Virus record (IMG/VR): IMGVR_UViG_3300029131_000181
Source of the DNA: a virus
Direction: 5' to 3' (one strand)
DNA length: 64,000 nucleotides
Under the pieces are notes generated by a model. It saw only the letters and a list, made by a program, of their open reading frames with translations, did no database searches and was not told the origin of the DNA. This document shows positions 7,933 to 62,677 of the stretch, piece by piece; within the stretch, counting starts at the first letter, position 1, and every line of letters begins with the position of its first letter. The position numbers and the translations under genes are program-made.

Positions 7933-8145
7933 CTATTTTTCCCCAAACTTGATGTCGATATATACAATCTCAAAGCACAGTGCAGCGCTCAAGGCAAATC
8001 CGAGAACGATATACGACGGGTGAGTTAAGGACCAGCCAGGATTCGCTAGATACCCATGCCAATATCTAATGTTAAGTACAAAAATAAACACCGGCAGAAT
8101 TAGATACCAGATGCTTTCCAGCACAATTTTGATGTCTTTTCGCAT
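7933..8145 (-). CDS. small membrane protein
   Basis: 70 aa with two hydrophobic segments. Confidence 0.5.
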   Translation of the reverse strand: MRKDIKIVLESIWYLILPVFIFVLNIRYWHGYLANPGWSLTHPSYIVLGFALSAALCFEIVYIDIKFGEK

Positions 8146-27910: not shown

Positions 27911-27923
27911 GTCTATATCTCCC

Positions 27924-27959
27924 AATAAAAAATCCAGCACCGAATTACTCAGCACTGGA
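27924..27959 (-). terminator. hairpin + U-run directly before the methyltransferase RBS
   Basis: Minus strand TCCAGTGC-loop-GCTGGATTTTTTATTGGGAG. Overlaps the stop of the upstream gene. Confidence 0.5.
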
Positions 27960-29813
27960 TGTATTTTCCGTATTACAATGACCGCATGATGTTTTCTTGT
28001 TTTCTACAAGACTTTGGGTTATCGCAAAGCATTCGTTTCCGCAATCACATTGACATTTCCATCGAGCATGACCGTTTTGGCTTCCTGCTCTCTCAATGAC
28101 CTTTAGCTTACCAAAGTGCATATTAGCTAAATCGTAAGTTCTTCCTTTTTTGACGAACTTATCGCGTGATGGATTTGCTTTCAAAAAGGCATCTGCTTCC
28201 TCTTCTGTCATGCTTTCGTATTCATTGGCAAATAACCAATGATATCCTCCGGCAACTGTACGTAGCTTGTTGCAGCAGTTCAAGATAGGCGAACCGCCGC
28301 TAATCCCGTATTTAAGAGAAGCCTCTTTTGCTGTAGAAAATCTCTCTTTTGTTTCAACGCAAATCACACTCTTGAAGTGTTTTTGTTTATAGCATTCAGG
28401 GCAGTTATGCCCGTATACTCTATCGGCTATTATCATCTTGTAGGAATGACCGTTTTTGCATTTCCACCAGCATTTTTCTGCAGACCCGGATGAGAAATAT
28501 TCGGGCTTCAAATTCTTGTTTTTTTCGTAATCCCATTCAGCAACAATTTCAGGATGTTCTGTAGCAAGGTTGTTCTTTTCGTTCCGTCTTCTTTTGCCTG
28601 TTGTACAAACAGGACATGTTGCGTTTTCTTTTGCTCTGCCATTGATGGGTGCTTCCCATTTATGCCCGCACTTAGAGCAAATCCAATGAACCATTTCTGA
28701 GCTAGATGATGACACCATCATCGGGTCAATGCCTACATTCAGTTCGTAGTCCCATTCTTTCAGGAGTTCCGGATGCCGTCCGCCCATACTTCGTTCAGCT
28801 TTGTAATCTTTGTATTGACGATAGATGTCTTTTGAATCCTTTTGTGTATCAATGTTAGGTTCAGAAACGCCAAGCATCTCTAAGCATTGGCGAATTGCTG
28901 CGTCGAGCGTTGCGTGCCCTCTATTGTTTTCTCTGATGATATTCTCGCTATTACGAATTTCCTGAAGCCCATGCTCGCGAATACGAATTATCCGAATTCC
29001 ATTCTGCTTGCATTTTTCGGACTTTTCTTCGTCATTTTTCACTCTTTTCTCATCAGAATGGTATCGAACACCATCGTATTCTACTGCAGTGCGAATGGAG
29101 GGGATGTAAATGTCCAGCTCTTTTCCAATAACTTTCTTGTTTCCAATAACAGCCTCTGAAAAATACTTTTTTGCATAATACGCTACTGCTTGTTCTTGGA
29201 ACGAGGTCTGTCCTTTATCGATAGTGCTGCATATCGGGCAACTCTTGATACGCTGGATGTAATGATATACGCTTGCCTGCCATTCCGTGCCACAAGCAGA
29301 GCATTTCCACCATACAACAATATTGCTTCCTTGTGTCAGCATACTGACATCTACGTCCTTATTTTTTGCAAAGTCATAGTCTTGCATAGCTTCTGCATTA
29401 TCTACAAGCATTTTCGAAGCTTCGGTAATGTGTTTGCAACAACCGCAAGACTTCACTTTTCCCCGCAGCAAAGAAGAGCGATAAGCAACAAATTCTTTTC
29501 CGCAGCTACACATACAGTTATAACGAATGTTTCTATGCCCCGTGCTTCCAATCGCATCTTCTGCCAAAGAAATAACTTTGATACCGTTGTGTTCTTCGCC
29601 AACCAAATCCTGGTATGTACGTTTACGGTCTTTACCTCGGCAGTCTTTACACTTTAACCCTTTCAAGAGCGCGTCGATACCAATTATCATTGTGTTTCCG
29701 CAGCAGTTACATTTCACCAAATAGGTATCTGCTTTTGAATTAGAGCCGGGGATAGTTTCGAAAACTGTTAAATCTCCGTATGTTTTGCCTGTTCTATTTA
29801 TTTTCGCCGCCAT
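27945..29813 (-). CDS. mosaic zinc-ribbon / Vsr-like endonuclease / NUMOD-like HTH protein (homing-endonuclease-like)
   Basis: 622 aa. CxxC ribbons throughout. KELDIYIPSIRTAVEYDGVRYH is a Vsr/DUF559-type core. HPELLKEWDY..WICSKCGHKW is a DUF4379-like ribbon. FSTAKEASLKYGISGGSPILNCC..GGYHW is a NUMOD/IENR-like HTH. Confidence 0.75.
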   Translation of the reverse strand: MAAKINRTGKTYGDLTVFETIPGSNSKADTYLVKCNCCGNTMIIGIDALLKGLKCKDCRGKDRKRTYQDLVGEEHNGIKVISLAEDAIGSTGHRNIRYNCMCSCGKEFVAYRSSLLRGKVKSCGCCKHITEASKMLVDNAEAMQDYDFAKNKDVDVSMLTQGSNIVVWWKCSACGTEWQASVYHYIQRIKSCPICSTIDKGQTSFQEQAVAYYAKKYFSEAVIGNKKVIGKELDIYIPSIRTAVEYDGVRYHSDEKRVKNDEEKSEKCKQNGIRIIRIREHGLQEIRNSENIIRENNRGHATLDAAIRQCLEMLGVSEPNIDTQKDSKDIYRQYKDYKAERSMGGRHPELLKEWDYELNVGIDPMMVSSSSSEMVHWICSKCGHKWEAPINGRAKENATCPVCTTGKRRRNEKNNLATEHPEIVAEWDYEKNKNLKPEYFSSGSAEKCWWKCKNGHSYKMIIADRVYGHNCPECYKQKHFKSVICVETKERFSTAKEASLKYGISGGSPILNCCNKLRTVAGGYHWLFANEYESMTEEEADAFLKANPSRDKFVKKGRTYDLANMHFGKLKVIERAGSQNGHARWKCQCDCGNECFAITQSLVENKKTSCGHCNTENTSSAE

Positions 29814-32480: not shown

Positions 32481-33812
32481 GTGAAAATCACTTCCAGCTA
32501 TGCTGTGGAAATCAAAAAGCAGAAAATGTTCGACAATACTATAAAGATTTATCGCGAAGCCGTTTCTTTCTTGATTGGTTGTTTTAACAAAGAATGGGAT
32601 TCTATTCAAAAAGTAGAGGGTGCCAAATCTCGAAAGAGTTTTGCCGAGAAGTTAATTCATACTACAAAATACAGCACTGCTAAATATGATTTCGATGCCA
32701 AGTTTTATAAGTTCCCTAGTTACCTGCGCAGAGCGGCTATTCAAGCAGCACTCGGCTCTGTAAGCAGCTACTACAGTAGCCATAAGAACTGGGAAGCAAA
32801 CGGCAAGGTTGACAGGGAGCCAAAACTTCAATGCGATAGATTTTGCTTCCCGGCTTTTTATAAGACCGTTATGTATGAGGAAAGCAACAAACCAAACCAG
32901 TGCTATCTGAAGCTGTATAAAAACAATGACTGGGTTTGGGTTCCTATCGCAATGCGTGCCACCGATGTCAAATACATCACGAAATACTGGTCACATTGCG
33001 AAAAGAGTGCTCCTGCACTCGAAAAGAAGTACGGGAAGTATTTCCTACGCTTTGCCTTCGAGGAAGAGGTAAAACTCTCCGAAACTGAAATTCAAGACAG
33101 GCGTATCTGCGCTGTAGACCTTGGTCTCAATACTGACGCCGTGTGCAGCATCATGACTGCCGATGGAACTGTCCTTGCAAGAAAATTTATCAATTTTGCA
33201 AGTGAAAAAGACCATCTGTATCATGTGCTCAACCGTATTAAGCGTAAGCAAAGAGAACATGGACCTAAGAGTGCTGCTGCTATGTGGCGTTACGCCAAAG
33301 CCTTGAATAACGATATAGCGAAAAAGGTTGCTGCTGCGATTACTGAATTTGCTGTGCTTTATTCTGTAGATGTGATTGTTTTTGAACATTTGTCATTTAC
33401 AGGCAAAAAGCACGGTGGCAGTAAGGCACAGAAGCTGTCGATGTGGAAGCGTAATTCCATACAGGATTATGTGGAACACAAGGCGCACCGCTGCGGTATC
33501 CGGATTTCGCGTATCTGTGCTTGGGGGACAAGCAAACTCGCCTTTGATGGCAGTGGTGCTCTCAAGCGTGATGAAACCAATCGTGCCCTTGCAACGTTTG
33601 CAAGCGGCAAACAATACAACTGCGACCTAAGTGCGAGCTACAATATTGGCGCTCGCTACTTTGTCAGAGAGTTGCTAAAACCCTTGCCAGCGATGGTAAG
33701 GTCTCAGCTTTCGGCTAATGTTCCGGATGTTGAGCGTAGAATCCAAGTTACACTTGCCACGCTTAAAGTTCTGTATCCTGAGCTTAAAAAACTCAGTACA
33801 CAGGCAGCGTAA
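32481..33812 (+). CDS. tnpB: TnpB-like RuvC nuclease lacking the zinc-finger cysteines
   Basis: 443 aa with GTG start. RuvC triad candidates are CAVDLGLNTD, VIVFEHL and NCDLSASYNIGARYF. The usual CxxC..CxxC segment is replaced by WGTSKLAFDGSGALKRDETNRALATFASGKQY. Confidence 0.8.
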   Translation: MKITSSYAVEIKKQKMFDNTIKIYREAVSFLIGCFNKEWDSIQKVEGAKSRKSFAEKLIHTTKYSTAKYDFDAKFYKFPSYLRRAAIQAALGSVSSYYSSHKNWEANGKVDREPKLQCDRFCFPAFYKTVMYEESNKPNQCYLKLYKNNDWVWVPIAMRATDVKYITKYWSHCEKSAPALEKKYGKYFLRFAFEEEVKLSETEIQDRRICAVDLGLNTDAVCSIMTADGTVLARKFINFASEKDHLYHVLNRIKRKQREHGPKSAAAMWRYAKALNNDIAKKVAAAITEFAVLYSVDVIVFEHLSFTGKKHGGSKAQKLSMWKRNSIQDYVEHKAHRCGIRISRICAWGTSKLAFDGSGALKRDETNRALATFASGKQYNCDLSASYNIGARYFVRELLKPLPAMVRSQLSANVPDVERRIQVTLATLKVLYPELKKLSTQAA

Positions 33813-35854: not shown

Positions 35855-38050
35855 TTACCTCCTGGTTCTTGCCGCCTTCTGTTGTTCGACCCACGCTTCG
35901 GCTTCCTCTACTGTGGCATACACTGCCGTCTCACCGCGCCGGGCAATCTGCTTTCGGGCATTCTGAGCTGCCTGCTCACTCTTGTAAGTTTCATAGCCAA
36001 TGTAGGACCCATCCCATCGGGCAAGGCAGCAATAATATTCGTGGCTCTTAGCGGGAGCTGTCGGGACAAAGGGAGGAGGTACTGCGGGTGTTGCCTGAGT
36101 CGGCTGTGCGGCAGGAATCGGTGTTCCAGTCTTTCTGGCAATTAGATTCTGCTTTTCTGCCATCCAGGCATCAGCTTCCTTCGTATAATAGAAGTACTTT
36201 GCTTCGCAAGTATTGAACAGTGAATAATACAGATTCAACATTTCTTTTTCACTGTTGCAGACCTTCTTGCGAGCCAAATTGTAGCTTGCATCGTAGTAGC
36301 AGCAGATGAAAGCATCCCCACGCGGTGCTTTCTTCGTCTCGTCTTCCTTGTAGTCTGGATACAGCTTGGCGAGGTCTTCTGCCGTATTCTTTTCCGGGTC
36401 CAGCGTGGATGCGTCGAACCCATTCGGAAGTTTCCAGTCATGAGAACTGATGATGTCCAAAAAGCTGCTTGCATAGCGCAATGTCCAGCGCCCAACATGG
36501 ACGAACCCAAAACTTTCAAGACACCGAATCTGTTTCGGGGTAGCCATTCCGCTGGCTCTGCGAGCAATGAGTCGTTTGAGAATTGCAGCGGCAAGGCCCT
36601 GAGATTTGATGGCATCCCCTTTTACGCCGTAGCACGAAATACTATCGATGATGTCATCGGAAGGCTCCTGCCTCTCACTCTCAAACATCGGCTGATAATC
36701 GTTGAGTTCCGGCGCTTCGATGCTGAAAATGTACTGCAGCGGGTCAACCAATCCTCTCGGCTTTTGACGCTGTGCCTTGAGCTTGCGCTGAATCGTATCC
36801 TGCTTTTCGAGTTCACACAGTGCTTTCCGCTTTTCCTCGTCCAGCTCAGTCTGTGCTTCCTCGATTGCCTCAATCAGCCCCAATTCAGGACTCCCGAAAT
36901 TCTCCTGGCTATTCGAACCGGTGAGTGCCGCATCCGCCAGCATATCGGTGGTCTTTTGTGCCACTTCTTGGTCTTCACAGAAAATATCAGCAGGATGGCA
37001 AAGACTATGTTTCTTTGTCAGCCACAGGAAATCCAGCACGAGAAGATTCTTTTTCCCTTCACACAGACGTGTTCCGCGTCCCACAATCTGCGCATACAGG
37101 CTGCGGCTCCTGGTAGGACGCAGGCAAATGATGCAGTCAACGGTCGGGCAATCCCAGCCTTCCGTCAGAAGCATCGCGTTCGTGAGCGCCTTGTACTCGC
37201 CGTTGTCGAATCCTTTCAGAACGTCCTCGCGGTCCGCAGACGCGCCATTGACTTCTGCAGTCTTGAAGTTCCGCTTATTGAGGATATTGCACAGTCTTTT
37301 GCTGATTCGTACCAGAGGCGTAAAGATAACGGTCTTTCGGTTCTGGCATTCTCGTACAATGGCATCCGCAATCGTGTCCAGATACAGGTCAAGAACATTG
37401 CCGAGGTCCTGAGCACTGAAATCACCGGCGTTGATATGGACTTTGCTGATATCCACCTTGACAGGAATCGTCTTCGTGTTGATTTTGCAGAGATAACCTT
37501 CCCGAATTGCATCCGGAAGCTTATATTCAAATGCAAGACTATCAAAGATATCAGATAGGGATTTCATGTCGCTTCGGTCGGGTGTTGCGGTCACGCCCAA
37601 CACTTTGGCATCGATGAAATGCTCGAGAATTCCCTTGTAAGTTTTGGTTGCCGTGTGATGCGCTTCATCAATGATGATAGTCCCGAAATAATCACGCGGA
37701 TACTTCATTAACCGATTCTGCTTAGAGAGAGTCTGTACACTGGCAACCACGACCATCTTATCGGAATCGAGCGCCGAGCTTTGTGCTTTCTCTAACGCGG
37801 TCTCTAGCCCCGTCACCATCTTGAGCTTGTCGCTTGCCTGCTGTAAAAGCTCTTCCCGGTGCGCAAGAATCAAAACGTGTTCGCCCTTTGCCACCTGGTC
37901 GTTCACGATGCTTGCAAACACAATAGTTTTGCCGGTTCCGGTCGGCATCACAACCAGCGTTTTCTTATTCCCGGCATCCCACTCCCTGTGAATCGCTGCA
38001 GCAGCTTCCTGTTGGTAGGGCCGGGAGTCAATCTTCTTTGTCATTGTCAT
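35855..38050 (-). CDS. SF2 DEAD/DEAH-box helicase (type III restriction Res-like core) with C-terminal extension
   Basis: SRPYQQEA (Q motif), MPTGTGKT (motif I), IIIDEAHH (motif II), GVTATP (motif III). Confidence 0.9.
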   Translation of the reverse strand: MTMTKKIDSRPYQQEAAAAIHREWDAGNKKTLVVMPTGTGKTIVFASIVNDQVAKGEHVLILAHREELLQQASDKLKMVTGLETALEKAQSSALDSDKMVVVASVQTLSKQNRLMKYPRDYFGTIIIDEAHHTATKTYKGILEHFIDAKVLGVTATPDRSDMKSLSDIFDSLAFEYKLPDAIREGYLCKINTKTIPVKVDISKVHINAGDFSAQDLGNVLDLYLDTIADAIVRECQNRKTVIFTPLVRISKRLCNILNKRNFKTAEVNGASADREDVLKGFDNGEYKALTNAMLLTEGWDCPTVDCIICLRPTRSRSLYAQIVGRGTRLCEGKKNLLVLDFLWLTKKHSLCHPADIFCEDQEVAQKTTDMLADAALTGSNSQENFGSPELGLIEAIEEAQTELDEEKRKALCELEKQDTIQRKLKAQRQKPRGLVDPLQYIFSIEAPELNDYQPMFESERQEPSDDIIDSISCYGVKGDAIKSQGLAAAILKRLIARRASGMATPKQIRCLESFGFVHVGRWTLRYASSFLDIISSHDWKLPNGFDASTLDPEKNTAEDLAKLYPDYKEDETKKAPRGDAFICCYYDASYNLARKKVCNSEKEMLNLYYSLFNTCEAKYFYYTKEADAWMAEKQNLIARKTGTPIPAAQPTQATPAVPPPFVPTAPAKSHEYYCCLARWDGSYIGYETYKSEQAAQNARKQIARRGETAVYATVEEAEAWVEQQKAARTRR

Positions 38051-52320: not shown

Positions 52321-53000
52321 TCATTGGGGATTCACTATCGGCGTTGCTGTTCTTGCTTGTGGGTCAATGGAATAAGTGGCGTCAATGCATACCGTATTGC
52401 TCCCTGTGTCTTTTCTCACAAAAACTGGCATTACAATTTCTGTGATGGATGTTGGGTCATTGCCATTCTCTGCATAGGTTTCGGCATATTCCTGCCAACG
52501 GATATCCACGTAGGCATTAGAATGTGGTTCCAGCAATGTTGTTCCTCCCGGGGTACACTCAAAGCCATTGATGGAGCCTTTATCCAGAATGACATCGATA
52601 CGGTCGTTGGTTTTGTTTTCGTAGTAGGCTTTTGCCGTATAGCCCATGAAACTATCAGAATAAAATCCGCAAACGACCATGCTGCAGGCATTATTGTCGA
52701 ACAGCACAATATCCGTGGGCTGAATCTCGTGTTTTGGTTCTGTCGCGTTCTCTTCACCTTTCGGATAAATCACAAAGTCATCATCGACAGGGTCATCACG
52801 ATTCGACACATCCCATTCTGCTTCATCATAGACATCGATGTGAAGTTTGACGGTATCGATGTCTTGCGGTTTCACTCCATAGATTTCCAGTCCTGCTTTA
52901 TCCCACGAAACGACCTCGGTGGTTTTCACTCCTGGTCCAATTTCCGGGAACCAACTGGTATCTGCCGGGATTCCATAAAATTTGTGCGTAGGGCACACCG
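52321..53000 (-). pseudogene. lipoprotein gene, C-terminal part (split by the iscB element)
   Basis: Aligns with residues ~175-393 of paralog 55365-56444 (VVYPKGEENATEPKHE.QPTD, GFECTPG/GFECFPE). Confidence 0.85.
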
Positions 53001-53106: not shown

Positions 53107-54504
53107 TTAAGATACTTTTTCCCATGCGGGATGTATGGAATCTGCTGCTTTTACAATTTTGAGTTTTTTAAGGCTCGCGGATTTTTGACCGTTTTTTGCG
53201 GGTGCTTTGAATTCTACATTTACGGCACCCTTTTTATTGGTATGAGTGCCATGCACAATGAGAACTTTTCCGTTGAGAGAGACTAAATCACCCGGATTAA
53301 GGTTTACCTTTTTGCGTAATAGAGCGCGATGCCCTGCGTATGTCCTCTTGCCACGATATTTGTGCAGGTTTTCCGAATCCTTTTTATGGCTGCGGCTGAT
53401 TCTACCGTTGAAGAGTTTTTTTCCGGTAGCTATTTCTCCTGTACGAATGTCAATGTAGCGAGAATCATAAAACTTTTCAAGGATGCGATTATTACGCCTT
53501 ACCTTTTCATAATGTTCAAACGTACAGCGGCAGTTTGGATGAAACTCGCCCATTGCATATGCATCATTATTATGACTCTTTTCAAGATGAAGCGCGATAC
53601 GTTTTTCTTTTGTCATTGCGCCATAAGTGACGGTGACAAAATCTTTTCCAAAAGCAGCATAGAGTTCATTGACAATTTGCCACCTAACGGTGTTCATAAA
53701 AGCCGCACCGGAAAGGTCGGCAAACTTTACATTTTCTCCGAAGCCATAAAGCTTACCGCTTTTTTGGTGATTGGCAGGCGTATGGCACTTTTCGCATACC
53801 GTTAGAAGTTCGTCCAGACTGTTGCCGTGACGACCTTTCCAGTAGAACATATGATGCATATGTAAAATCGCACCTTCTGTAGCTTTACGCCCACAAACCT
53901 TACAGACATAGTTATCGCGGTAAAATACCGCTTCCCGCAAGGTTGCCAAGTTGTAGCGGGGACCTTTCTGGTAGTCTACACCTTCCGGTTTTGATTCGCC
54001 TTTCTGGATGGCTTGCAGCAACATTGTGTCGAAAGAACCAACCTCAACCGTTGCATGAGTAATGGGCATTACCGCACAATACATCTTAACAACGTTGACA
54101 TTGAGTTCTTTCTTATGTCTCAAAGATGGAGCAAGCCAACTCTCGCCGCGTTTGCGATTATCGAAACGCGGTTTACGGTAGCGCAGTCTGTTTCTTCGGG
54201 AACGACGCATCTTGCGACAATCATCGTGATGTTCCTTCTCATCCTGTAATGTATCATACTGCGCAGATACATACTCGTGAGATTGACTTTTCACACTGAT
54301 GCCGATGTAGTTGTAGCCAACATCCTCACAGATTTCGATGGGTTGTGTGTTTGTTTTGCTGTCATACAGCAGCTGGATGGTAAAAGGATGATGCTTAACG
54401 ATTTTTGCTTTTCCGTCTTTCAAGAGGCGGCGTACCTTGCCAAGACGGAAGGTAGGCATTAAGCGTTCACCACTGTTGCTGAGAACGCAAACGCAAGTGC
54501 TCAT
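53107..54504 (-). CDS. iscB: IscB RNA-guided nuclease
   Basis: N-terminal PLMP-type motif (GERLMP), RuvC-I (EDVGYNYIGISV), arginine-rich bridge helix (RRSRRNRLRYRKPRFDNR), HNH (CKVCG..HMHH..N..CEKCH), RuvC-II/III (EKSHNNDAYAM) and a C-terminal beta-rich domain. Confidence 0.9.
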   Translation of the reverse strand: MSTCVCVLSNSGERLMPTFRLGKVRRLLKDGKAKIVKHHPFTIQLLYDSKTNTQPIEICEDVGYNYIGISVKSQSHEYVSAQYDTLQDEKEHHDDCRKMRRSRRNRLRYRKPRFDNRKRGESWLAPSLRHKKELNVNVVKMYCAVMPITHATVEVGSFDTMLLQAIQKGESKPEGVDYQKGPRYNLATLREAVFYRDNYVCKVCGRKATEGAILHMHHMFYWKGRHGNSLDELLTVCEKCHTPANHQKSGKLYGFGENVKFADLSGAAFMNTVRWQIVNELYAAFGKDFVTVTYGAMTKEKRIALHLEKSHNNDAYAMGEFHPNCRCTFEHYEKVRRNNRILEKFYDSRYIDIRTGEIATGKKLFNGRISRSHKKDSENLHKYRGKRTYAGHRALLRKKVNLNPGDLVSLNGKVLIVHGTHTNKKGAVNVEFKAPAKNGQKSASLKKLKIVKAADSIHPAWEKVS

Positions 54505-54853
54505 GCAAGATACTCCTTTCGTTAAATAGTAATGAAACTATAAGTCAGGGCTTGCGCCCCGTGGTCCACTTCGCCAATGTTATGCACTGTTTTAGCCTTT
54601 CGGCATGGCTTACGCACTTCTCCTACCCTTAGAGATGTTTAACGTAATATGTATCAACGGCTTGCACCATTGACACATACGCTGCCCGCAGAGCCCGACA
54701 CTTGTGGAGCATATCGGGGTGCCTATATTATTAGTACACAACGTAGTTTTCCCCACTGCCGGAGCAATGGGCTTAGGCTAATCAACTGGGCTTACAGGTT
54801 GCCCCGCAAGCCCCGTCTATAACCGGTGAACCGGTTTAGGCGGGGTTGTTGAC
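54505..54853 (-). ncRNA. IscB omega RNA (HEARO-type) upstream of iscB
   Basis: ~350 nt, ORF-free and GC-rich between the left end and the iscB RBS. Multiple stems with GCAA/GAAA loops (GGGGCGCAAGCCC, GCCGAAAGGC). Confidence 0.7.
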
Positions 54854-55220
54854 TCAAGGACGAGCTGCTTGTGATAGCGCAAAGAGTTTTGTCATCCGTT
54901 TTATTTTGGAAATCAACGGTCCAGTAGTAGCCATAGCTGTCATCATAACCCACGTTCTGCAAGATGATGGTACAGGTATCGTTGTCGGCAATCGTCTGTG
55001 GCTGGAAACTCTCATCGAACTGGATGTCGGGTTCAGCCGTTGCATTATCGGCAGCACTACTTGCAGTACTCGTTGAAGAGTCGCTGGTGCTTTCCTCGGG
55101 GGATGCAGCATCAGATGTAGCTGCACTGCTGGCAGCAGTACTGGTAGTGTTAGAGCTGCTACAGGCGGCCAGGGAAAGGGCAAGCAAAGCCGAAAGTGCT
55201 AATGATACAACCTTTTTCAT
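54854..55220 (-). pseudogene. lipoprotein gene, N-terminal part (split by the iscB element)
   Basis: MKKVVSLALSALLALSLAACSSS lipobox. Colinear with the paralog up to ..NKTDDKTL. Confidence 0.85.
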
Positions 55221-55364
55221 GATTTTCTCCTTTTTTCTTTGTATAAGGCTATTATACATCAAAAGCGCTTCGGCATTTTACTTTTCCAGAACGAAACCTT
55301 TATTTACAAAGTTGCAAACGAAGCCTGGGAAAGTTAATAATTTTAATCGCAGGAGGGCGTCAAA

Positions 55365-56444
55365 TTATTCCGATGTTGTCACGGAATTTGTCTGAGGGTT
55401 AATAGTGAAAGTCTCATCTACATAGATGTCCCGAGTGCTGGAATTGTTTATAACGATTGGCATCACCATTTTGGTGACAGAGGTGGGGTCTTTACCGTTG
55501 GCCTCATAAGTATCTAAATAATCGTAATAGTAGATGTCTACATAGGCATTAGTGTGCGCATCAATTCCCATTGTATCTGTTTCAGGGAAGCACTCAAAGC
55601 CATTTATGGAACCTCCACTTCTAAAGGCAAACATGATTTCTTTATCCGTCTTGTTTTCTATGTAAGCTTTGGCCGTATAACCGTGTAGGCCGTTGGGGTC
55701 AAATCCACAAATCATCAGGGCGCAAGCGTCATTGTCGGCCAGTACGAGGTCTGTGGGTTGGGTTTCATGCTTTGGCTCGGTTGCGTTTTCTTCCCCTTTT
55801 GGATAAACCACGAAATCGTCATCAACAAAGTCATGCCGTGGGATAACATCATAATCTAATTCGTTATAGACATCGAGATAAAAACTTACCGTATTGATAT
55901 CCTGCGGATTGATGTTATAAATTTTAAGCCCGGAACTTTCCCAATGATGAATCTCCGTTTCCTCTTGACCAGGTTCAACACTCGTAAGCCAAAGGCTCGC
56001 ACCCACGCCATTCAATGTGCAGTCATCAAACGAGTAACCGAGTTTTTTATCTGATGTCTTATTCTTGAAATAAAGCTTCCAATAATAGCCGTAATCATCA
56101 TCGTAACCAACGCTCTGCAAGATAATGGTGCATTCTTCATTATCAACAAGTGTCTGTGCCTGGAAATCATTATCGTATGTAATTTTGGGTTCGGGGGACG
56201 GCGTAGGTAAATCGCTGCCTGTGCCGTTCCACACCCTTTCATATGTTTTGCCGTCTTCTGTAGTATATGTCTCTCCTACTTTAATCCCGTCAGGGCTGTA
56301 ATCTTGCGTGCTATTGGAAGTGCTATTTGACGAAGCACTTGACTTGGATTCACTTGAGGCTGCAGCAGAACTATCTGCCTTGCCACAGGCAGCCAACGAG
56401 AGGACGAGCAAAGTCGAAAGTGCTAATGATACAACCTTTTTCAT
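55365..56444 (-). CDS. lipoprotein (intact paralog)
   Basis: Trimmed to MKKVVSLALSTLLVLSLAACGK (AAAAGGAG RBS). Ser-rich linker followed by two related beta-rich halves. Confidence 0.8.
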   Translation of the reverse strand: MKKVVSLALSTLLVLSLAACGKADSSAAASSESKSSASSNSTSNSTQDYSPDGIKVGETYTTEDGKTYERVWNGTGSDLPTPSPEPKITYDNDFQAQTLVDNEECTIILQSVGYDDDYGYYWKLYFKNKTSDKKLGYSFDDCTLNGVGASLWLTSVEPGQEETEIHHWESSGLKIYNINPQDINTVSFYLDVYNELDYDVIPRHDFVDDDFVVYPKGEENATEPKHETQPTDLVLADNDACALMICGFDPNGLHGYTAKAYIENKTDKEIMFAFRSGGSINGFECFPETDTMGIDAHTNAYVDIYYYDYLDTYEANGKDPTSVTKMVMPIVINNSSTRDIYVDETFTINPQTNSVTTSE

Positions 56445-56964
56445 AGTGTTCTCCTTTTTTCTGTTTGTCAGAGCCATTATACACCAAAAGCACTTTGACT
56501 TATTTATTTTGGGAATATTTATCGCCAATTTGAGCGGATTGCACAAATAGCAAGAAGAAAATCAGTGCATATATGCTTCGACATTTTCCTTTCCCCTCTG
56601 CATTTTCCAGAACGAAACTTTTAATGCAGGCTTTCCCAAACGAAACTTTTGGGAGTTGTGATTTGAACTTGACAGCATTTGCGGCAGCTGAGATTTTGCT
56701 ATTCGCCTGTTCCGATTGTCTCACCACAGATACGAAGCAGCGCATTTCGCTTTTGTGAGATACATCTCATATTTGGAAAGGCTGCGACAAAATTCTGAGG
56801 TTTCAGCGGCTCGCTTGCGACATTTTTCCAACTTTTTGGGCAGCAAAAAAGCCCTACCAGAATGGTAGAGTCTTTGCATGTTTTCTTTCGGTCATACGAG
56901 TAGGAAGCGTCATTTATCCGATATTCTTTCGCGCAAAAAAATGAACTTGCTTCGAGGTGAAGCG

Positions 56965-57027: not shown

Positions 57028-57111
57028 ACAATGTCTACTTTTCCGTAGCAAAAAGAAAAGCCACCAAACGATTTTACTCGCTTGGCGGCTTAGCTATATT
57101 CCTATACTGTT

Positions 57112-60100
57112 TTATCCAAATAACTCATCCAGCTTTTCGCTCAACGTCCCATCCTTTGCATAAGGCAATGCATCGCACATACGAAAGTTATACTGCTTTC
57201 CGTTATGCTCCTCAGAGAACCCAAGAATATAGTTGGTTGCAATGCGATAAATAATTTCGGACGGAGCCAGACCGTAGACCTGCTTTTCAAAGATGTGTTC
57301 GAGCCGCTCCTTGGAGTTCGGGAACGCAGCTTTCATGCCTTCGCTCTGGTACAGACGCTTCACGATTTCGGTAATGTACAGGCCCGATTTCATGTACAGG
57401 TCAATAAAGGTCTTGTCCGGGTCATTAAAGCATCCGGGATTTTCTTCTTCCAAAAGCGATACCATCTTTGCCACGGTTGCTTTCGGGGTAAAGATTTGGT
57501 TCGTGCGCTGCGGCGGAATGTAGTCGAAGATGTCCTTTTCGTTCGCCGGGTCAAAATAGTTTGCCAGTTCACGCTTTAACCGCAGGAACTCTTTGATGGA
57601 ATCATCAAACACGACTTCATCAAACAGCTTCCCGTCAAAGTGCTTCGTTTCGCCTGTGGCGGTATCCTTGTAATCACCGCCATCGCGCAGGAAACGGAAC
57701 TGCTCCAGCGTGATGCTGGTGACTTCTTGGAAAACTTCATCGGGAACGATTTGGTCGAAGTTGGCAAGAGTGGTATCCTCTGTGCCATAGGCCATCAGAA
57801 ATGACGGTATCGTGCGGGCAAAACCGCGTAGATGGTCGCGGATGGTATCTTCCACATCGTTCTTTTTGCGTTCCTCGATTTGTGTCTCATAGCTGCGGAC
57901 AGTCTCTTTGGCGGCATCTTCCACGAAGCTGCTGACCGTATCATTCAAAGCTGTTTTCAGCTTTTCAGTAGCCTCTGCCTTTTTCTGGTCGAATTCCTGA
58001 TTGATTTTTGCCTGTTCGTGGGGCGCAGCAGCAGCCAACTGCTCATGGCGTTCTTTTTCGATTTGGTTGGTTTCGATACGATAGTCGCCGTAAGTCCGCG
58101 CCACCAAACGGTCCGCATCCTCGCCCAGCTTCTTCTCTACACGCTTGGCATCCGATGCCTTAATTTCCGAGTCATAATTGGAGGTGGCAGCAGCCACGAT
58201 GGGTTTAACAGCCTGCGCCTTGAAAGCCTCCTGCAACGCTTCCAGCGCCTTATCCTTGGGCTGGTTGTCAACGGCGACTTTATCAATAGCCTGCGTGACC
58301 TGCTCGCTGACAGTCTCATAGATTTTATCGCCAAAAATATCATCGGCCAAACCGATAACATAGCCCTCATCTACTTCGACATCGCCGTTTTCATCAACAT
58401 GGACGCGGTCCAAATCTTCTTTCTTGACTTCCTGCTTTTTCGGTTCGTCCACAGGGGTGAACTTTGTAATAATGTTCACAACCGCCTGCGGAGCACCGAA
58501 GATGTTGGAAATGTTCTGGAACAGATAATTGGACATAAATCCGCGATTCACAACTTCTGTGGAGCGAATCTTTCGCGGAATAGAAAGTACCTTTTCGGCA
58601 TCCAGTTCCACCATTTCGCCGTCTTCATCCTCGCCGATGACCGGGAAGAAGTTCAGCAGTTCCTTGATGTGCTTTTTGCGGGTTTCGGTATCACCGCGAC
58701 CATCGGAAGTGCTGGCATACAGGTCGTTCGCGAACTCCTCAAAAATCATAAGAGTTCGCGCAGGGTCGAAGTCGAAGATATAAGCATTCTCCTTGCGGTA
58801 GAACTTGCCTTTGTCGTGGAACAAGCACGGATTCTGCGCACGGAACGCCGCCTGCATATACAGGGATGCACTCTTGATGCTGCTCAGCATCAGCACAGCA
58901 GTCCATTCTGGAATCGTAACGCCCGTGGTGAGCTGTCCGACAGACAGTGTAATTGTCTTGTCGTTCTGGGCGATAGCCTCGGTCACGCTGTCAAACGCTT
59001 TCTTGGCAGAATCATCATCGTTCAATCTACCGTCACCCACTGCCGCGACGACCTTGTAATCCTTGAAAACAGGATGGTTGTTCAGCTTGCGGGCTAGAGC
59101 CTTGGCGCTGTCCACACGGTTCAGCAGCCAAAGCGTATGCTTTAATTCATCGCGTAATTCCGGTGTGGAGAACGGGAACTTAGTCTGTGTAGTCAGCGCA
59201 TCAAGGAACTTGTCCACAGCGCTGTCATGCACAAAGTTTCCGGCCTGATTGACTGCAAAAAACTCATTTAGGTCAAACGCCCATTCTTCTGTCTCGCCGT
59301 TGATTTCAATGCCCTGCTTCAGTTCATCCCGAACGACCTCGGACATCTGATAGGTGAACATATTGAGCTGCGGCAGATTCGCGTAGGGATTCTGCTCGCT
59401 CTGGTCACCCTGCCAATCGCGTTTTTTCTTCTGCTCGTCGGCATAGGTCCAGTTATAGATGGCGTCCTCTTTGAATTTTTCGCTGGCAATGGCCTTAAAC
59501 GGCGTGCCGGACAGATGCAGCGTAAAGTTGCGGTCAATATGGTCGAACGCCACATCCGTCTTGTAGGTATCTACGCCCTCGTGGGCTTCGTCAATAATCA
59601 GAACATCCCAATGAATGTCATTGACTTCTTTCAGCTTTTCAAATTCACCGCCAAAGTAAATGGAGCCTTTGAGGTCCTGCAAGCTGACGAACTCGATGCA
59701 CTTGTAGTCGTCGTTGTTCAGCATATCCAGATACTGATTGCGGCTCACAACAAAAGGCTTCCCCTGCAGGGAGCTGGTATCGCTCACAAACAGATACCCG
59801 GAATCGGGACCGAGGAACTTCTCGTAGTCGGAATACCACGAGTTTGCAATCGCAGGGCGGTTCGTCACGATAAGGACCGTGTCTGCGTCCATCTGTTTGC
59901 AAAGCTCATAGGCCGTAAGTGTTTTGCCGAAGCGCGGCTTTGCGTTCCAGAGGTATTCACCCTTGGTATGCAGGCGGCTGTAATTCAGCGTTTTCTCTAC
60001 CGCATCCTCCTGCTCCTCACGCAGATTATACGGGGTTGCGGCGGTCAGCGATTGCAAAATACCGCGATTCGCACGGAAATCATAGAAGTGGTTGCGGGAA

Positions 60101-60408
60101 ACAGGCCCCGTCACATGGAACCATTCGTTCTTGGGGTCGTTCTCAATGTTCAGCTTGCGCAGATAGCGGTGGAAATCTTTATCGGTAAATGTATCGCCGG
60201 AGCCATCCTCGAATGTAGCATTGCCGCGCCATTCTTCTTTGTATTCCACATCGGCAGTATGGGTCTGCTGGCTCAATCGCTTGTCTACATCCTGCTCGGT
60301 GTAGCCGATTTTCGTCCAACCGTTATGGCGGGCAATCTCAGGAGTGGTATAGGCATAAATCATCGGAACAACGCGGTCCGTTGTTTTGATGACGATTTTA
60401 GTGCTCAT
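57112..60408 (-). CDS. T5orf172/GIY-YIG-like + SF2 helicase + methyltransferase-N-terminal-like fusion protein
   Basis: N-terminal MIYAYTTPEIARHNGWTKIGYTEQDVDKRLSQQ. Helicase motifs PRFGKTLTAYE and LIIDEAHEG. C-terminal NQIFTPKATVAKMVSLL..FIDLYMKSGLYITEI resembles MTase motifs X/I with no NPPY. Confidence 0.8.
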   Translation of the reverse strand: MSTKIVIKTTDRVVPMIYAYTTPEIARHNGWTKIGYTEQDVDKRLSQQTHTADVEYKEEWRGNATFEDGSGDTFTDKDFHRYLRKLNIENDPKNEWFHVTGPVSRNHFYDFRANRGILQSLTAATPYNLREEQEDAVEKTLNYSRLHTKGEYLWNAKPRFGKTLTAYELCKQMDADTVLIVTNRPAIANSWYSDYEKFLGPDSGYLFVSDTSSLQGKPFVVSRNQYLDMLNNDDYKCIEFVSLQDLKGSIYFGGEFEKLKEVNDIHWDVLIIDEAHEGVDTYKTDVAFDHIDRNFTLHLSGTPFKAIASEKFKEDAIYNWTYADEQKKKRDWQGDQSEQNPYANLPQLNMFTYQMSEVVRDELKQGIEINGETEEWAFDLNEFFAVNQAGNFVHDSAVDKFLDALTTQTKFPFSTPELRDELKHTLWLLNRVDSAKALARKLNNHPVFKDYKVVAAVGDGRLNDDDSAKKAFDSVTEAIAQNDKTITLSVGQLTTGVTIPEWTAVLMLSSIKSASLYMQAAFRAQNPCLFHDKGKFYRKENAYIFDFDPARTLMIFEEFANDLYASTSDGRGDTETRKKHIKELLNFFPVIGEDEDGEMVELDAEKVLSIPRKIRSTEVVNRGFMSNYLFQNISNIFGAPQAVVNIITKFTPVDEPKKQEVKKEDLDRVHVDENGDVEVDEGYVIGLADDIFGDKIYETVSEQVTQAIDKVAVDNQPKDKALEALQEAFKAQAVKPIVAAATSNYDSEIKASDAKRVEKKLGEDADRLVARTYGDYRIETNQIEKERHEQLAAAAPHEQAKINQEFDQKKAEATEKLKTALNDTVSSFVEDAAKETVRSYETQIEERKKNDVEDTIRDHLRGFARTIPSFLMAYGTEDTTLANFDQIVPDEVFQEVTSITLEQFRFLRDGGDYKDTATGETKHFDGKLFDEVVFDDSIKEFLRLKRELANYFDPANEKDIFDYIPPQRTNQIFTPKATVAKMVSLLEEENPGCFNDPDKTFIDLYMKSGLYITEIVKRLYQSEGMKAAFPNSKERLEHIFEKQVYGLAPSEIIYRIATNYILGFSEEHNGKQYNFRMCDALPYAKDGTLSEKLDELFG

Positions 60409-60409
60409 A

Positions 60410-61438
60410 TTATGCCATCTCCTTTACATGAGATTCGATGAAGTCGATTTCCTGCTGTGAAAGACCATACTTCTTGTATAGTTGCTGGTCAATGTCGCGG
60501 ATGGAAGCCGACCAGTTAATGTCAGAGTTGGGGGTGAAATCTTGTAAAGGAACATTCTTCCATGCAGAAATCGATGTGTGCTGCGTAACTTTTAATGTCC
60601 CAAGCATTGCACGGCAAAACTTTGTCTTTATATATTTCACAACACGCTCTGCTTCATCAGAAGTTTCAAATCGTCCCATGCTGATGAATGTCTGTGTAAA
60701 TCCTACATTCGGGCCTTCAACATGAGGAGGATAAATTGCTTCACCAAATTTACCAATTCCGGTTGCTTCTGGCATGACCGCTTTGTAGTAATTCAAATTG
60801 GTTTTATTGTCTATATATTCTCGTTTAATGTACTTATAAACACGCGCATTATTTACTCGCCCAAGGATTGACACATATTCGCCATTAGCTGGTTTTTGAG
60901 AGTAGAACACTTCTGGAATAGAATCAAAGACATTGGTTTTTACTTCATATTCATTTCCCTTACTGAGTTTTGCCTTTAGTTGCGGATTTTCGTCATGCAT
61001 CAACTGTGTAAATTTATAAGCCACTGGCGAATACACTATTGTGCTAAAAGCAATAAAATCTTCCGCATGAAGTATCTTTTTTGCAATGCCGTTGAGTTCT
61101 GGTTCCTTAAAAAAGTGCTCTATAGGTCCGAAATCTTTTCGCTTGTCACGATAGGTAACTGCGACACCGCCTTTAATATCTGTGTTCGGGAAAATGCTTG
61201 CACTAAGCGGTCTATAGTACAAGACTTTATAATGTGGGTCAGAAAGCATTTTTCTATTCCACTTTTTATCGGTATCACCAGCATCGAACAAAAAACGTGC
61301 CGGATGAATCATTTCGACTACCGTTGCCACTTCGAAGCCAGATTCCAAGAAATAATTATAAACAGAAGGAGCCTTTGTATTATCACCAATACCCGTATCT
61401 TGATACGGAGGGTTGCCAATTGCATAATCGAACTTCAT
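60410..61438 (-). CDS. Eco57I-type N6-adenine methyltransferase catalytic/C-terminal half
   Basis: Begins MKFDYAIGNPPYQ (motif IV at the extreme N-terminus). Own RBS AAAGGAG 12 nt upstream. Confidence 0.8.
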   Translation of the reverse strand: MKFDYAIGNPPYQDTGIGDNTKAPSVYNYFLESGFEVATVVEMIHPARFLFDAGDTDKKWNRKMLSDPHYKVLYYRPLSASIFPNTDIKGGVAVTYRDKRKDFGPIEHFFKEPELNGIAKKILHAEDFIAFSTIVYSPVAYKFTQLMHDENPQLKAKLSKGNEYEVKTNVFDSIPEVFYSQKPANGEYVSILGRVNNARVYKYIKREYIDNKTNLNYYKAVMPEATGIGKFGEAIYPPHVEGPNVGFTQTFISMGRFETSDEAERVVKYIKTKFCRAMLGTLKVTQHTSISAWKNVPLQDFTPNSDINWSASIRDIDQQLYKKYGLSQQEIDFIESHVKEMA

Positions 61439-61442
61439 ATCG

Positions 61443-62438
61443 TCACTTTTCTCCTTTCATTTGGTTGTAAGAAATTGTCCGCATAGCACGCCAATCACGG
61501 ATTTTACATTCGTATTTCTTATTTTGCTTAGCCGCCTCATCGAACAGTGTTTCCTGTTCAAAATCACTTGCAAACAGGGATAGCTGCTCGTAGTCGTCTG
61601 ATATGTACAGTTCTTTGCCCGGAATCGTCCCTTTTAGGCCGTCCATCTGCCATATGTTCCAGCAGATTACATTGGCAATCTGGTTCAGTTCCTTGGCAGT
61701 CGGCTCCCGCTGCCATCGCTCCTGCATATAGTCCACGAAGGTCATCAGCAGGTTGATACGGGCAACAAGCAGGTTGTCACCCTGATATTCGTAGCCGTAG
61801 GTACTTTCAAAGGCTCGCCGCGTCCATTTCAGCCAGTCAGCCTCATTATTGGTATTCTCGTTTACGACCCGCAGCTTTCTGTCCAGAATCCCAATTCTGT
61901 TTTCAATCGGAAGTTCTTCGCCGGTAGCGGCATCATAGCGGGATACCAAATAAGGGGCCTCGCCGCAGGTGATTTCCAGCCGCCGAGAATCAACATACCG
62001 CTGCCAATCCCGTTCTTTCTCAAAGTAAACAGGCTCTTTCGTTGGCTCCCAGTGTTCACCGTTCAGCGTATTAAATACGTTCTCGCGTCCAAACCAATCG
62101 TCATCGCATTTATTGTTCATATAGCAGACGACCCAAGAGGGCGTAAAGACCTCGGCTTTGGATTTCGTTCTTGCCGCCTGTTCTTCTTCCGCTTTCAAAA
62201 TGCGCGGCTGGATAAGATTGGCATATACCCCGGAAATCAGCTCCGGCGTGATTTGATTATCCTGCCGATAGCCATCGCCGTATCGTTCATAAGTATTTGT
62301 TGCCCAGATTATATTTTCACCTGTCGTCTTATCTTCCAGCAGAAACCGCATTGCCGTTCTGACCGGATAAGAATACAGGTCAATCAGTTTGCCCAGATGT
62401 GCCACCCCCGCGCAGCGCAGGAAGCAGCCAGAACCCAT
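61443..62438 (-). CDS. methyltransferase N-terminal-half-like protein (degenerate motif I)
   Basis: AEVFTPSWVVCYMNN (motif X-like) and LEITCGEAPYLVSRYD in place of the usual D/EPxCGxGxFL. Start uncertain (62438 or 62351). Confidence 0.6.
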   Translation of the reverse strand: MGSGCFLRCAGVAHLGKLIDLYSYPVRTAMRFLLEDKTTGENIIWATNTYERYGDGYRQDNQITPELISGVYANLIQPRILKAEEEQAARTKSKAEVFTPSWVVCYMNNKCDDDWFGRENVFNTLNGEHWEPTKEPVYFEKERDWQRYVDSRRLEITCGEAPYLVSRYDAATGEELPIENRIGILDRKLRVVNENTNNEADWLKWTRRAFESTYGYEYQGDNLLVARINLLMTFVDYMQERWQREPTAKELNQIANVICWNIWQMDGLKGTIPGKELYISDDYEQLSLFASDFEQETLFDEAAKQNKKYECKIRDWRAMRTISYNQMKGEK

Positions 62439-62648: not shown

Positions 62649-62677
62649 ATTATAGCATATAGCACCGTTTCTCTCAA
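62649..62677 (-). promoter_or_regulatory. extended -10 promoter of the methyltransferase/helicase operon
   Basis: Minus strand TTGAGA-N17-TATAAT preceded by TGC. Confidence 0.55.

What the first reader, a model, noticed from the sequence alone, without database searches (positions are those of the whole stretch)
57112..62438. Split NPPY methyltransferase plus a 1098-aa T5orf172-helicase protein that ends in a second, catalytically incomplete methyltransferase N-half
On the minus strand the order is as follows. ORF 62438-61443 carries motif X-like EVFTPSWVV and a degenerate motif I (EITCGEAPYL). ORF 61438-60410 starts exactly at motif IV (MKFDYAIGNPPYQ) and has its own AAAGGAG RBS, so the split is not a simple frameshift. 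ORF 60408-57112 contains a T5orf172/GIY-YIG-like nuclease domain, an SF2 helicase and a C-terminal QIFTPK...FIDLYMKSGLY segment that looks like another MTase N-terminal half with no NPPY. The result is two alternative SAM-binding-like halves and a single catalytic half, tied to a nuclease-helicase. This resembles type I, type III or type ISP logic but matches none of the standard layouts that I know.
Basis: partly seen in the sequence, partly recalled or inferred. Interest (0 to 1): 0.75.

Follow-up and report, generated by a model that had tools for sequence, protein, structure and literature searches.

The report
Restriction system sharing one methylase half
This three-gene restriction-modification operon encodes one protein with the methyltransferase's catalytic half and DNA-reading domain, which appears to be shared between two different SAM-binding halves (one free-standing, one at the end of a nuclease-helicase motor); the layout is widespread but I found no description of it.

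Summary
On the minus strand lie ORF1 (331 aa, methyltransferase motifs X-I-II-III, no NPPY), ORF2 (342 aa, starts at MKFDYAIGNPPYQ) and ORF3 (1098 aa: T5orf172 nuclease, SF2 helicase, helical region, then a second X-I-II-III half that ends where NPPY should follow). It is not a freshly broken gene, because each protein belongs to a large family of conserved length. Across about 240 related loci the same four modules recur: A (ORF1-like half), C (NPPY half plus presumed recognition domain), B (second half) and NH (nuclease-helicase). They occur as A|C|NH-B, A~C|NH-B, A|NH-B~C or A|B~C|NH. C can be free or fused to either half, and both halves are found in nearly every locus with readable flanks. 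In 151 non-redundant fusions the codon at the head of C is a start codon in 142. All 14 Val are GTG and all 7 Leu are TTG (p = 2.5e-11 and 4e-6), which indicates internal initiation making free C. Both ORF1 and ORF3 have the Type ISP enzyme LlaBIII as their best structural match. The best reading is a Type ISP-like system in which A+C methylates and NH-B+C restricts, with identical specificity. I found no prior description. No protein-protein contact was tested.

The parts
62649..62677 (-). Promoter-like site upstream of ORF1 (TTGAGA-17-TATAAT with TG)
   Evidence: Best-scoring site on the minus strand, 11 of 12 matches. This is a consensus match only; the total number of sites in the region is not above the shuffled expectation.
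61443..62438 (-). ORF1 = module A: free-standing SAM-binding half of a gamma-class N6-adenine DNA methyltransferase (motifs X, I, II, III; no NPPY)
62139..62156 (-). ORF1 motif X (AEVFTP, aa 95-100)
   Evidence: A95 through P100 are invariant in a 40-sequence alignment. Coordinates were read.
61947..61979 (-). ORF1 motif I (LEITCGEAPYL, aa 154-164)
   Evidence: E155, T157, C158, G159, E160, A161 and P162 are invariant. Short A-type relatives have the canonical FLEPACGSGNFL at this position.
60410..61438 (-). ORF2 = module C: catalytic half (motif IV NPPY onward) plus C-terminal presumed target-recognition domain; the shared subunit
   Evidence: Pfam Eco57I profile 73-165 of 171 only. Full-length match to PADLOC PDLC03375, and to positions 1012-1359 of 1359 of PDLC03626 REase_MTase_IIG. 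Lies at the C-terminal end of the protein in 148 of 150 diverse representatives, whether free or fused.
61403..61414 (-). NPPY catalytic motif (ORF2 aa 9-12)
   Evidence: N9, P10 and Y12 are invariant and P11 is nearly invariant.
57112..60408 (-). ORF3 = NH-B: T5orf172 nuclease, SF2 helicase-like ATPase, helical region, then a second methyltransferase N-half
   Evidence: Pfam T5orf172 and ResIII. PADLOC PDLC03626 positions 334-661. Thousands of homologues of about 1100 aa. Foldseek top PDB hit LlaBIII at E 1e-11 over 1067-1107 columns.
60109..60360 (-). T5orf172 (GIY-YIG-like) nuclease domain, ORF3 aa 17-100
   Evidence: Pfam PF10544 at 25.1 bits, cutoff 20. Y18, Y20, K33-T37, R44 and E95 are invariant.
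58549..60030 (-). SF2 helicase-like motor, ORF3 aa ~127-620 (GKT 161-163, DEAH 273-276)
   Evidence: Pfam ResIII 127-304. G161, K162 and D273-H276 are invariant. The two-lobe alpha/beta secondary structure extends to about aa 600.
57619..58323 (-). Long helical (coiled-coil-like) region, ORF3 aa ~696-930, possibly equivalent to the Type ISP coupler
   Evidence: AF2 helices 696-710, 718-745, 751-793 and 796-864. The coupler equivalence is inferred from the full-length Foldseek alignment to LlaBIII.
57115..57531 (-). Module B: second methyltransferase N-half (motif X QIFTPK 971-976; motif I FIDLYMKSGLY 1001-1011; E1051; D1079), ending 3-5 residues before the point where fusions continue with (M/V/L)KFDxxIGNPPY
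   Evidence: hhalign probability 100% to the N-half of NH-B~C fusions. AF2 beta1 1001-1003, beta2 1044-1048, beta3 1075-1077. The motif residues are invariant. In B~C proteins the same segment is covered by Pfam N6_Mtase and a full Eco57I domain.
57058..57091 (-). Terminator-like hairpin 21 nt after the ORF3 stop
   Evidence: 14-bp stem with 7 GC pairs and a T-rich tail.

Best explanation
This is a three-protein, Type ISP-like restriction-modification system built on natural fragment complementation of one methyltransferase fold. ORF2 (module C) carries strands beta4-beta7 with the NPPY catalytic motif and a C-terminal presumed DNA-recognition domain, but no SAM-binding subdomain. Two different proteins each supply a motif X-I-II-III subdomain that stops exactly where C begins: ORF1 (module A) and the tail of ORF3 (module B). 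A+C would form a stand-alone N6-adenine methyltransferase that marks host DNA. NH-B+C would rebuild the domain order of a Type ISP enzyme (nuclease, SF2 motor, helical region, methyltransferase, recognition domain). That complex would read the same sequence and, at unmethylated sites, translocate using ATP and cut with the T5orf172 nuclease. Because both complexes would use the same C polypeptide, modification and restriction would have the same specificity by construction, and competition of A and NH-B for C would set the balance between them. What is shown: the module anatomy, the four architectures, the presence of both N-halves in nearly every readable locus, selection for a start codon at the head of C, and the structural kinship to LlaBIII. 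What is inferred: that free C is actually made in fused genes, that C binds both halves, which complex methylates, and that the system restricts DNA.
Against: No protein-protein evidence was obtained. A and B share almost no sequence similarity beyond motif X (hhalign probability 65% over 21 columns), yet both would have to fit the same C surface. Foldseek alone did not recognise ORF1, and profile searches found no PDB sequence relative. Module B has Lys where motif I usually has its first Gly, so B+C may not bind SAM in the usual way. ORF2 shows no sharply hypervariable segment of the kind expected for a recognition domain. The start codon at the head of C shows selection for initiation, not what the free product does. 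The SD-like signal in NH-B~C fusions partly overlaps a conserved (F/Y)GG peptide encoded as GGAGG. Defence activity is untested, and the loosely analogous DnmA-YeeB-YeeC cluster showed no defence in B. subtilis (PMC9973331).
Confidence: 0.6

Rival explanations
1. Only one N-half truly completes the fold with C, and the other has a different role. In one version, A+C (or A~C) is the only methyltransferase, and the B tail of ORF3 is a docking domain that attaches the nuclease-helicase to it, as Res binds Mod in Type III systems. In the other version, B+C is the functional unit as in Type ISP enzymes, and A is a SAM-sensing or regulatory partner.
For: A and B are very dissimilar in sequence. In A~C|NH-B loci, C is already covalently partnered. 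B has a non-canonical motif I with Lys in place of the first Gly. Classical Type ISP enzymes need no extra subunit (PMC3874165, PMC2790903).
Against: Both A~C and B~C fusions exist in large numbers, so each half can complete the fold. The SAM-contact-type residues of both halves are invariant. A start codon at the head of C is under selection in both kinds of fusion, and that is unnecessary if the non-fused half never needs C.
Confidence: 0.25
2. The window holds a decaying system: a once-fused methyltransferase or helicase-methyltransferase gene broken by mutation, with no current function.
For: Many relatives encode ORF1+ORF2, or ORF3+ORF2, as single polypeptides. The region carries IS-related genes.
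Against: All three ORFs are intact, full-length members of their families. The same split occurs in 19 diverse genome loci, at the same boundary and with SD and ATG. The identical ORF3 protein is indexed in 161 blocks of the contig collection, and all four contexts shown have the same gene structure. Catalytic motifs are invariant.
Confidence: 0.04
3. The operon is not a host-defence restriction system. It would instead serve the mobile element that carries it, for example as self-protective methylation or anti-restriction with a DNA-processing motor, or as an epigenetic regulator.
For: Relatives lie on plasmids, ICE-like regions and contigs classed as viral. DnmA in B. subtilis behaves as an orphan regulatory methyltransferase (PMC9973331).
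Against: The conserved combination of nuclease, translocase, methyltransferase and recognition domain, and the full-length fold match to a proven restriction enzyme, are most simply read as restriction-modification. Neighbours are defence genes. A shufflon-like C-half switch is typical of restriction-modification specificity variation.
Confidence: 0.08

Closest known systems
[quoted passage not shown]
   Different: Type ISP enzymes are single polypeptides with an Mrr-type nuclease and need no partner (PMC3874165, PMC2790908). Here the nuclease is T5orf172/GIY-YIG-like, and the methyltransferase fold is cut between motifs III and IV. A second SAM-binding half (A) accompanies the system in nearly every readable locus, and the C-half carries its own start codon. 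There is no detectable sequence similarity to the solved Type ISP chains.
Type III (Mod/Res) and Type I (HsdM/S/R) systems
   Same: The logic is the same. A methyltransferase species acts alone for modification, and the same specificity-bearing component joins an ATP-dependent motor-nuclease for restriction. The A|B~C|NH architecture is formally Mod+Res-like. HsdM subunits are among ORF1's best structural matches.
   Different: In Types I and III, whole folded subunits are shared. Here the shared unit would be half of a methyltransferase fold plus the recognition domain, and it would complement two alternative other halves. The nuclease family and the gene layout also differ.
Type IIG / Eco57I-MmeI family (PADLOC REase_MTase_IIG, MTase_II profiles)
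   Same: ORF2 and ORF3 match PADLOC PDLC03626 'REase_MTase_IIG', and ORF1 and ORF2 match 'MTase_II' profiles. The methyltransferase belongs to Pfam Eco57I. So the sequences are already catalogued under these labels.
   Different: Type IIG enzymes as characterised (MmeI, BpuSI, Eco57I) have no helicase motor and are single chains. The labels do not capture the split or the second N-half.
DnmA-YeeB-YeeC cluster (B. subtilis, Vibrio)
   Same: A gamma-class (MmeI-like) methyltransferase is associated with an SF2 helicase and a T5orf172/GIY-YIG protein in a conserved operon found in defence islands (PMC9973331).
   Different: There the methyltransferase is complete, and the helicase and T5orf172 are separate proteins. 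No half-methyltransferase modules are described, and no defence was seen in B. subtilis.
Naturally or artificially split DNA methyltransferases (from memory: M.AquI alpha/beta; fragment complementation of M.HhaI and M.SssI) and internal-start isoforms such as McrB-S
   Same: These are precedents that the SAM-binding and catalytic subdomains of the fold can be separate polypeptides, and that an internal translation start in a restriction gene can produce a shorter product that controls complex assembly (PMC12707154 for McrB).
   Different: The split examples are C5-cytosine enzymes with one N-part and one C-part (recalled from memory, not checked here). None has two alternative N-halves competing for one C-half, or a link to a motor-nuclease.

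Membership tests
Type ISP restriction-modification enzymes | All activities in one polypeptide | tested here: not met
   In the window the modules are on three proteins. Relatives with NH-B~C in one chain exist but nearly always have an adjacent A gene.
Type ISP restriction-modification enzymes | N-terminal Mrr-family (PD-(D/E)xK-type) nuclease | tested here: not met
   The ORF3 N-terminus matches Pfam T5orf172 (GIY-YIG-like), not Mrr. The type-4 NH protein hits T5orf172 and MUG113.
Type ISP restriction-modification enzymes | SF2 helicase-like ATPase followed by a coupler, a gamma-class methyltransferase and a recognition domain, in that order | tested here: met
   Pfam ResIII with invariant GKT and DEAH. 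Foldseek aligns about 1100 columns to LlaBIII. In fusions the tail is followed directly by the NPPY half and the C-terminal domain.
Type ISP restriction-modification enzymes | One-strand m6A methylation of an asymmetric site; ATP-dependent translocation; cleavage on collision of head-to-head sites | not testable with these tools
   This needs biochemistry or methylome data. The properties of LlaGI are taken from PMC2790903.
Gamma-class N6-adenine DNA methyltransferase (Pfam Eco57I / N6_Mtase) | Motif order X, I, II, III, IV (NPPY), V-VIII, then a recognition domain, forming one Rossmann-like fold | tested here: met
   The order is met only across two polypeptides. ORF1 has X-I-II-III and ORF2 has IV onward. 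In natural fusions Eco57I covers profile 3-171 of 171 across the junction, and N6_Mtase hits 17 of 28.
Gamma-class N6-adenine DNA methyltransferase (Pfam Eco57I / N6_Mtase) | SAM binding and methyl transfer to adenine N6 | not testable with these tools
   Motif residues are invariant, but activity was not measured.
Type IIG restriction-modification enzymes (as labelled by PADLOC) | A single chain with a nuclease and a methyltransferase that cleaves at a fixed short distance, with no NTP-dependent motor | tested here: not met
   There are HMM matches to PDLC03626, but a conserved SF2 ATPase is present and the system is multi-chain.
Type III restriction-modification (Mod/Res) | A complete Mod methyltransferase (beta-class, internal recognition domain) plus Res with an SF2 helicase and a C-terminal PD-(D/E)xK nuclease | tested here: not met
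   The methyltransferase is gamma-class Eco57I-type with a C-terminal domain. The nuclease is N-terminal T5orf172. ORF3 carries half a methyltransferase.

The most novel reading that the evidence does not exclude
A widespread and so far unnamed class of restriction-modification system works by time-sharing half an enzyme. One polypeptide (the NPPY catalytic half plus the recognition domain) is always produced in free form, from its own gene or from a conserved internal start inside a fusion gene. It completes two alternative SAM-binding halves, giving a dedicated methyltransferase and a Type ISP-like motor-nuclease with identical specificity. In some members the shared half is also swapped by site-specific inversion.
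Probability: 0.5. Interest if true: 0.8.

Novelty: new variant of a known kind. Interest (0 to 1): 0.72.

Why it matters
If correct, this is a new way of solving the central problem of restriction-modification, which is keeping the methylase and the nuclease locked to the same DNA sequence. It would do so not by sharing a folded subunit, as Types I and III do, nor by fusing everything, as Types IIG and ISP do, but by sharing half of a methyltransferase fold. It would also be a natural, widespread case of protein-fragment complementation with two competing partners, and a large set of conserved in-frame internal translation starts. The components are very common in gut, rumen and dairy bacteria and their mobile elements (thousands of homologues). 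They are currently annotated piecemeal as 'restriction endonuclease subunit M', 'Eco57I...domain-containing protein' and 'DEAD/DEAH box helicase', so defence-system catalogues probably mislabel them. In practice, the C-half would be a portable specificity module for engineering.

Full report
1. CHECKING THE OBSERVATION

The junctions are tight. ORF1's TGA is followed by four bases and the ORF2 ATG, with AAAGGAG upstream. ORF2's TAA is followed by one base and the ORF3 ATG, with AAGGAG upstream. A promoter-like site (62677-62649, 11 of 12 matches plus TG) precedes ORF1, and a 14-bp-stem terminator-like hairpin (57091-57058) follows ORF3. These are consensus matches only. The quoted motifs are all present.

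Pfam finds nothing in ORF1. In ORF2 it finds only the second part of the Eco57I methylase domain (profile 73-165 of 171). In ORF3 it finds T5orf172 (aa 17-100) and ResIII (aa 127-304). The identical ORF3 protein is indexed in 161 blocks of the contig collection. The four contexts shown, from independent metagenome assemblies, all have the same 331|342|1098 gene calls, so the split is real.

2. WHAT THE PIECES ARE

PADLOC gave the first lead. ORF1 and ORF2 are each full-length members of stand-alone 'MTase_II' profiles. ORF3 (aa 288-594) and ORF2 (aa 3-341) match positions 334-661 and 1012-1359 of a single 1359-position 'REase_MTase_IIG' profile. So in fused relatives the order is helicase, then N-half, then NPPY half, which is ORF3 followed by ORF2. 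In the window ORF2 lies upstream of ORF3.

Each protein belongs to a very large family of conserved length: about 1100 aa for ORF3, about 310 aa for ORF1, which NCBI names 'restriction endonuclease subunit M', and about 344 aa for ORF2.

ORF3. The model (pLDDT 74.6) has a two-lobe helicase, long helices at 696-864, and a terminal beta1 (1001-1003), beta2 (1044-1048), beta3 (1075-1077) unit. Its best PDB match is again LlaBIII (E 1e-11), aligned over 1067-1107 columns, against roughly 450-900 for most other helicase hits. The tail aligns at hhalign probability 100% to the segment that directly precedes KFDVvIGNPPYQ in helicase-methylase fusions. ORF1 and the ORF3 tail resemble each other only around motif X (probability 65%).

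The T5orf172, Walker A (GKT) and DEAH residues, and the tail's motif residues (D1003, K1007, S1008, G1009, E1051, D1079), are invariant in a 40-sequence alignment. ORF1's motif I residues are invariant as well.

3. COMPARATIVE GENOMICS: FOUR ARCHITECTURES, ONE PARTS LIST

I name the modules as follows. A is the ORF1-like N-half. C is the ORF2-like NPPY half plus its C-terminal domain. B is the ORF3-tail N-half. NH is the nuclease-helicase.

In 80 genome loci from many phyla, plus three plasmids, the counts are:
- A~C in one reading frame followed by NH-B: 42 loci.
- A|C|NH-B, split as in the window: 19 loci.
- NH-B~C in one frame of 1250-1480 aa: 8 loci.
- Other or incomplete: 14 loci.

Split and A~C forms are interspersed on the ORF3 tree, so the state has switched repeatedly.

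Loci that seemed to lack A do not. An HMM of the ORF1 family finds a shorter gene of about 240-260 aa directly next to every NH-B~C or C|NH-B locus with flanks. Of the six loci with no hit, five are truncated, too short or wrap the record origin, and the sixth (L051) is degraded. The same pairing occurs on a dairy Lactococcus plasmid, where a 230-aa 'N-6 DNA methylase' sits beside a 1461-aa fusion. An A gene is adjacent in 36 of 40 metagenomic NH-B~C loci.

These short A proteins carry textbook motifs and then end without NPPY: X is GEVFTPxWMV, I is FLEPACGSGNFL, II is YGIEL and III is NIVxGDALT. Pfam matches only the first third of the N6_Mtase and MmeI_Mtase models.

Viral-collection contigs add a fourth architecture in about 30 loci: A|B~C|NH. 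Here B~C is a protein of about 510-620 aa with a complete Eco57I domain, and NH is a T5orf172-helicase of about 850 aa with no methylase piece.

A census of 150 representatives from 1.84 billion proteins gives 49 NH-B~C, 38 A~C, 33 free C, 4 B~C, 21 with an unassigned N-part and 5 truncated. C is at the C-terminal end of the protein in all but two.

So C is found free, fused to A, or fused to B, while both A and B are retained in nearly every readable locus.

4. A START CODON AT THE HEAD OF C

In A~C fusions, 41 of 42 have an in-frame ATG exactly where free ORF2 starts. An SD-like tract of at least 5 nt lies upstream in 49%, against 9.7% at control in-frame positions of the same genes (p = 2e-10). 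The figure for true split ORF2 starts is 69%. Five of the six SD-less cases are Bacteroidota, which from general knowledge largely lack SD-led initiation; the sixth (L022) is a Planctomycetota MAG.

Pooling 151 non-redundant genes in which C is fused to at least 150 upstream residues, the head-of-C codon is ATG in 121, GTG in 14 and TTG in 7. All 14 Val are GTG, against 17.5% GTG among Val codons in the same genes (p = 2.5e-11). All 7 Leu are TTG, against 17.1% (p = 4e-6) (components). Most of the nine exceptions have a Met a few codons upstream.

A hydrophobic residue would satisfy the structure at this position. The synonymous-codon bias therefore points to selection for translation initiation, meaning free C is made even from fusion genes. 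One caveat applies: part of the SD-like signal in NH-B~C genes coincides with a conserved (F/Y)GG peptide encoded as GGAGG.

5. MECHANISM PROPOSED

C lacks a SAM-binding subdomain. A and B each supply one, and each ends exactly at the beta3/beta4 boundary. From general knowledge, this is the natural seam of the fold between its cofactor-binding and catalytic subdomains.

I propose that A+C is the modification methyltransferase. NH-B+C would recreate a Type ISP-like enzyme that recognises the same sequence, translocates using ATP and cuts with the T5orf172 nuclease. Because the same C is used in both, specificity would be identical by construction.

By analogy, LlaGI methylates one strand of an asymmetric site, needs ATP and Mg but not AdoMet to cut, and cleaves between head-to-head sites (PMC2790903, PMC3874165). 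Internal initiation that regulates assembly of a restriction complex is known for McrB (PMC12707154).

Whether B+C also methylates is open. B's motif I has Lys in place of the first Gly but keeps the acidic residues of motifs II and III. From memory, M.TaqI and EcoKI HsdM also depart from the GxG pattern. None of the protein contacts has been tested.

6. COMPARISON WITH KNOWN SYSTEMS AND NOVELTY

The closest known system is Type ISP, which shares the domain order and gives the best fold matches. Several defining features are not met: Type ISP is a single polypeptide with an Mrr nuclease and needs no partner. The logic resembles Types I and III, where a methylase species acts alone and also joins a motor-nuclease, but there whole subunits are shared rather than half a fold. 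PADLOC and REBASE-derived profiles already catalogue the pieces as Type II or Type IIG. DnmA-YeeB-YeeC combines an MmeI-like methylase, a helicase and a T5orf172 protein, but has no half-methylases (PMC9973331).

Six full-text searches found no description of the split or shared-half arrangement. The library is open-access only, and REBASE could not be checked. I rate this a new variant of a known kind.

7. CONTEXT AND SIDE OBSERVATIONS

The window is a defence and mobile-element island. It holds a GmrSD_N+HNH protein, a DUF4238 protein, an EcoRI-type methylase next to a DUF4379 zinc-finger protein, a weak TnpB-like match, another ResIII helicase, SPFH and VWA proteins and an IscB-like gene.

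In L107 a perfect 30-nt inverted repeat encoding DAIIGNPPYQ brackets two convergent C-halves, next to a tyrosine recombinase. L118 has the equivalent repeat. This looks like a shufflon that swaps the C-half, and it supports C as the specificity cassette.

8. VERDICT

My confidence that this is a Type ISP-related restriction-modification system is about 0.85. My confidence that free C is made in all architectures is about 0.8. My confidence that C serves both halves as proposed is about 0.6.

Noticed in passing
L107:7127-14081 (also L118:1-6045): Shufflon-like arrangement: a tyrosine recombinase (Pfam Phage_integrase, 1e-26), a spare promoterless C-half gene with no start codon at its head, then convergently NH-B~C and A. 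A perfect 30-nt inverted repeat (8000-8029 / 10033-10062) encodes DAIIGNPPYQ in both C-halves. L118 has a 45-nt, 84% equivalent. Inversion would swap the C-half attached to the helicase protein.
   Followed up: partly
window 53107-54504 (-): A 465-aa protein with Pfam RRXRR (5e-46) and HNH, which is the domain pair of IscB-type IS200/IS605-associated nucleases. Rfam found no RNA family nearby (48-64 kb searched).
   Followed up: partly
window 52321-52998 (-), 54792-55262 (-), 55365-56546 (-): The 393-aa lipoprotein-like ORF at 55365-56546 has a paralogue that seems to be in two pieces, an N-terminal part at 54792-55262 and a C-terminal part at 52321-52998 (shared stretches such as FV(I/V)YPKGEENATEPKHE). 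These pieces flank the IscB-like gene, as if that element had inserted into the paralogue. This is judged by eye from the translations.
   Followed up: no
window 24845-29813 (-): A second restriction-type cluster: GmrSD_N+HNH (Type IV-like), DUF4238, an EcoRI-type adenine methylase (4e-109), and a 622-aa DUF4379 zinc-finger protein with a weak, sub-threshold REase_MTES_1575 match.
   Followed up: no
window 35855-38050 (-) and 32481-33812 (+): Another SF2 helicase (ResIII, SWI2_SNF2, Helicase_C; 731 aa) of unknown partnership, and a 443-aa ORF with a weak, sub-threshold Cas12f1-like TNB (TnpB-type) match.
   Followed up: no
L076:840-6079: Unusual order C|NH-B|A followed by a fragment of a second C-half (ORF2 aa 2-66) in the same frame as A. 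This may be a rearrangement intermediate between architectures.
   Followed up: no
L162:5287-9672 (-) (Lactococcus cremoris pUC047G): The dairy-plasmid NH-B~C protein has a DUF4145 match at its N-terminus (aa 31-112) in place of the Pfam T5orf172 hit seen in the window's ORF3, so the nuclease or N-terminal module varies within the family.
   Followed up: no
window 62350-62438 (-): The start of ORF1 is uncertain. Homologue consensus and the PADLOC profile begin to align about 12-30 residues into the listed ORF, and a GTG at codon 12 (VAHLGKLID...) is an alternative start.
   Followed up: no
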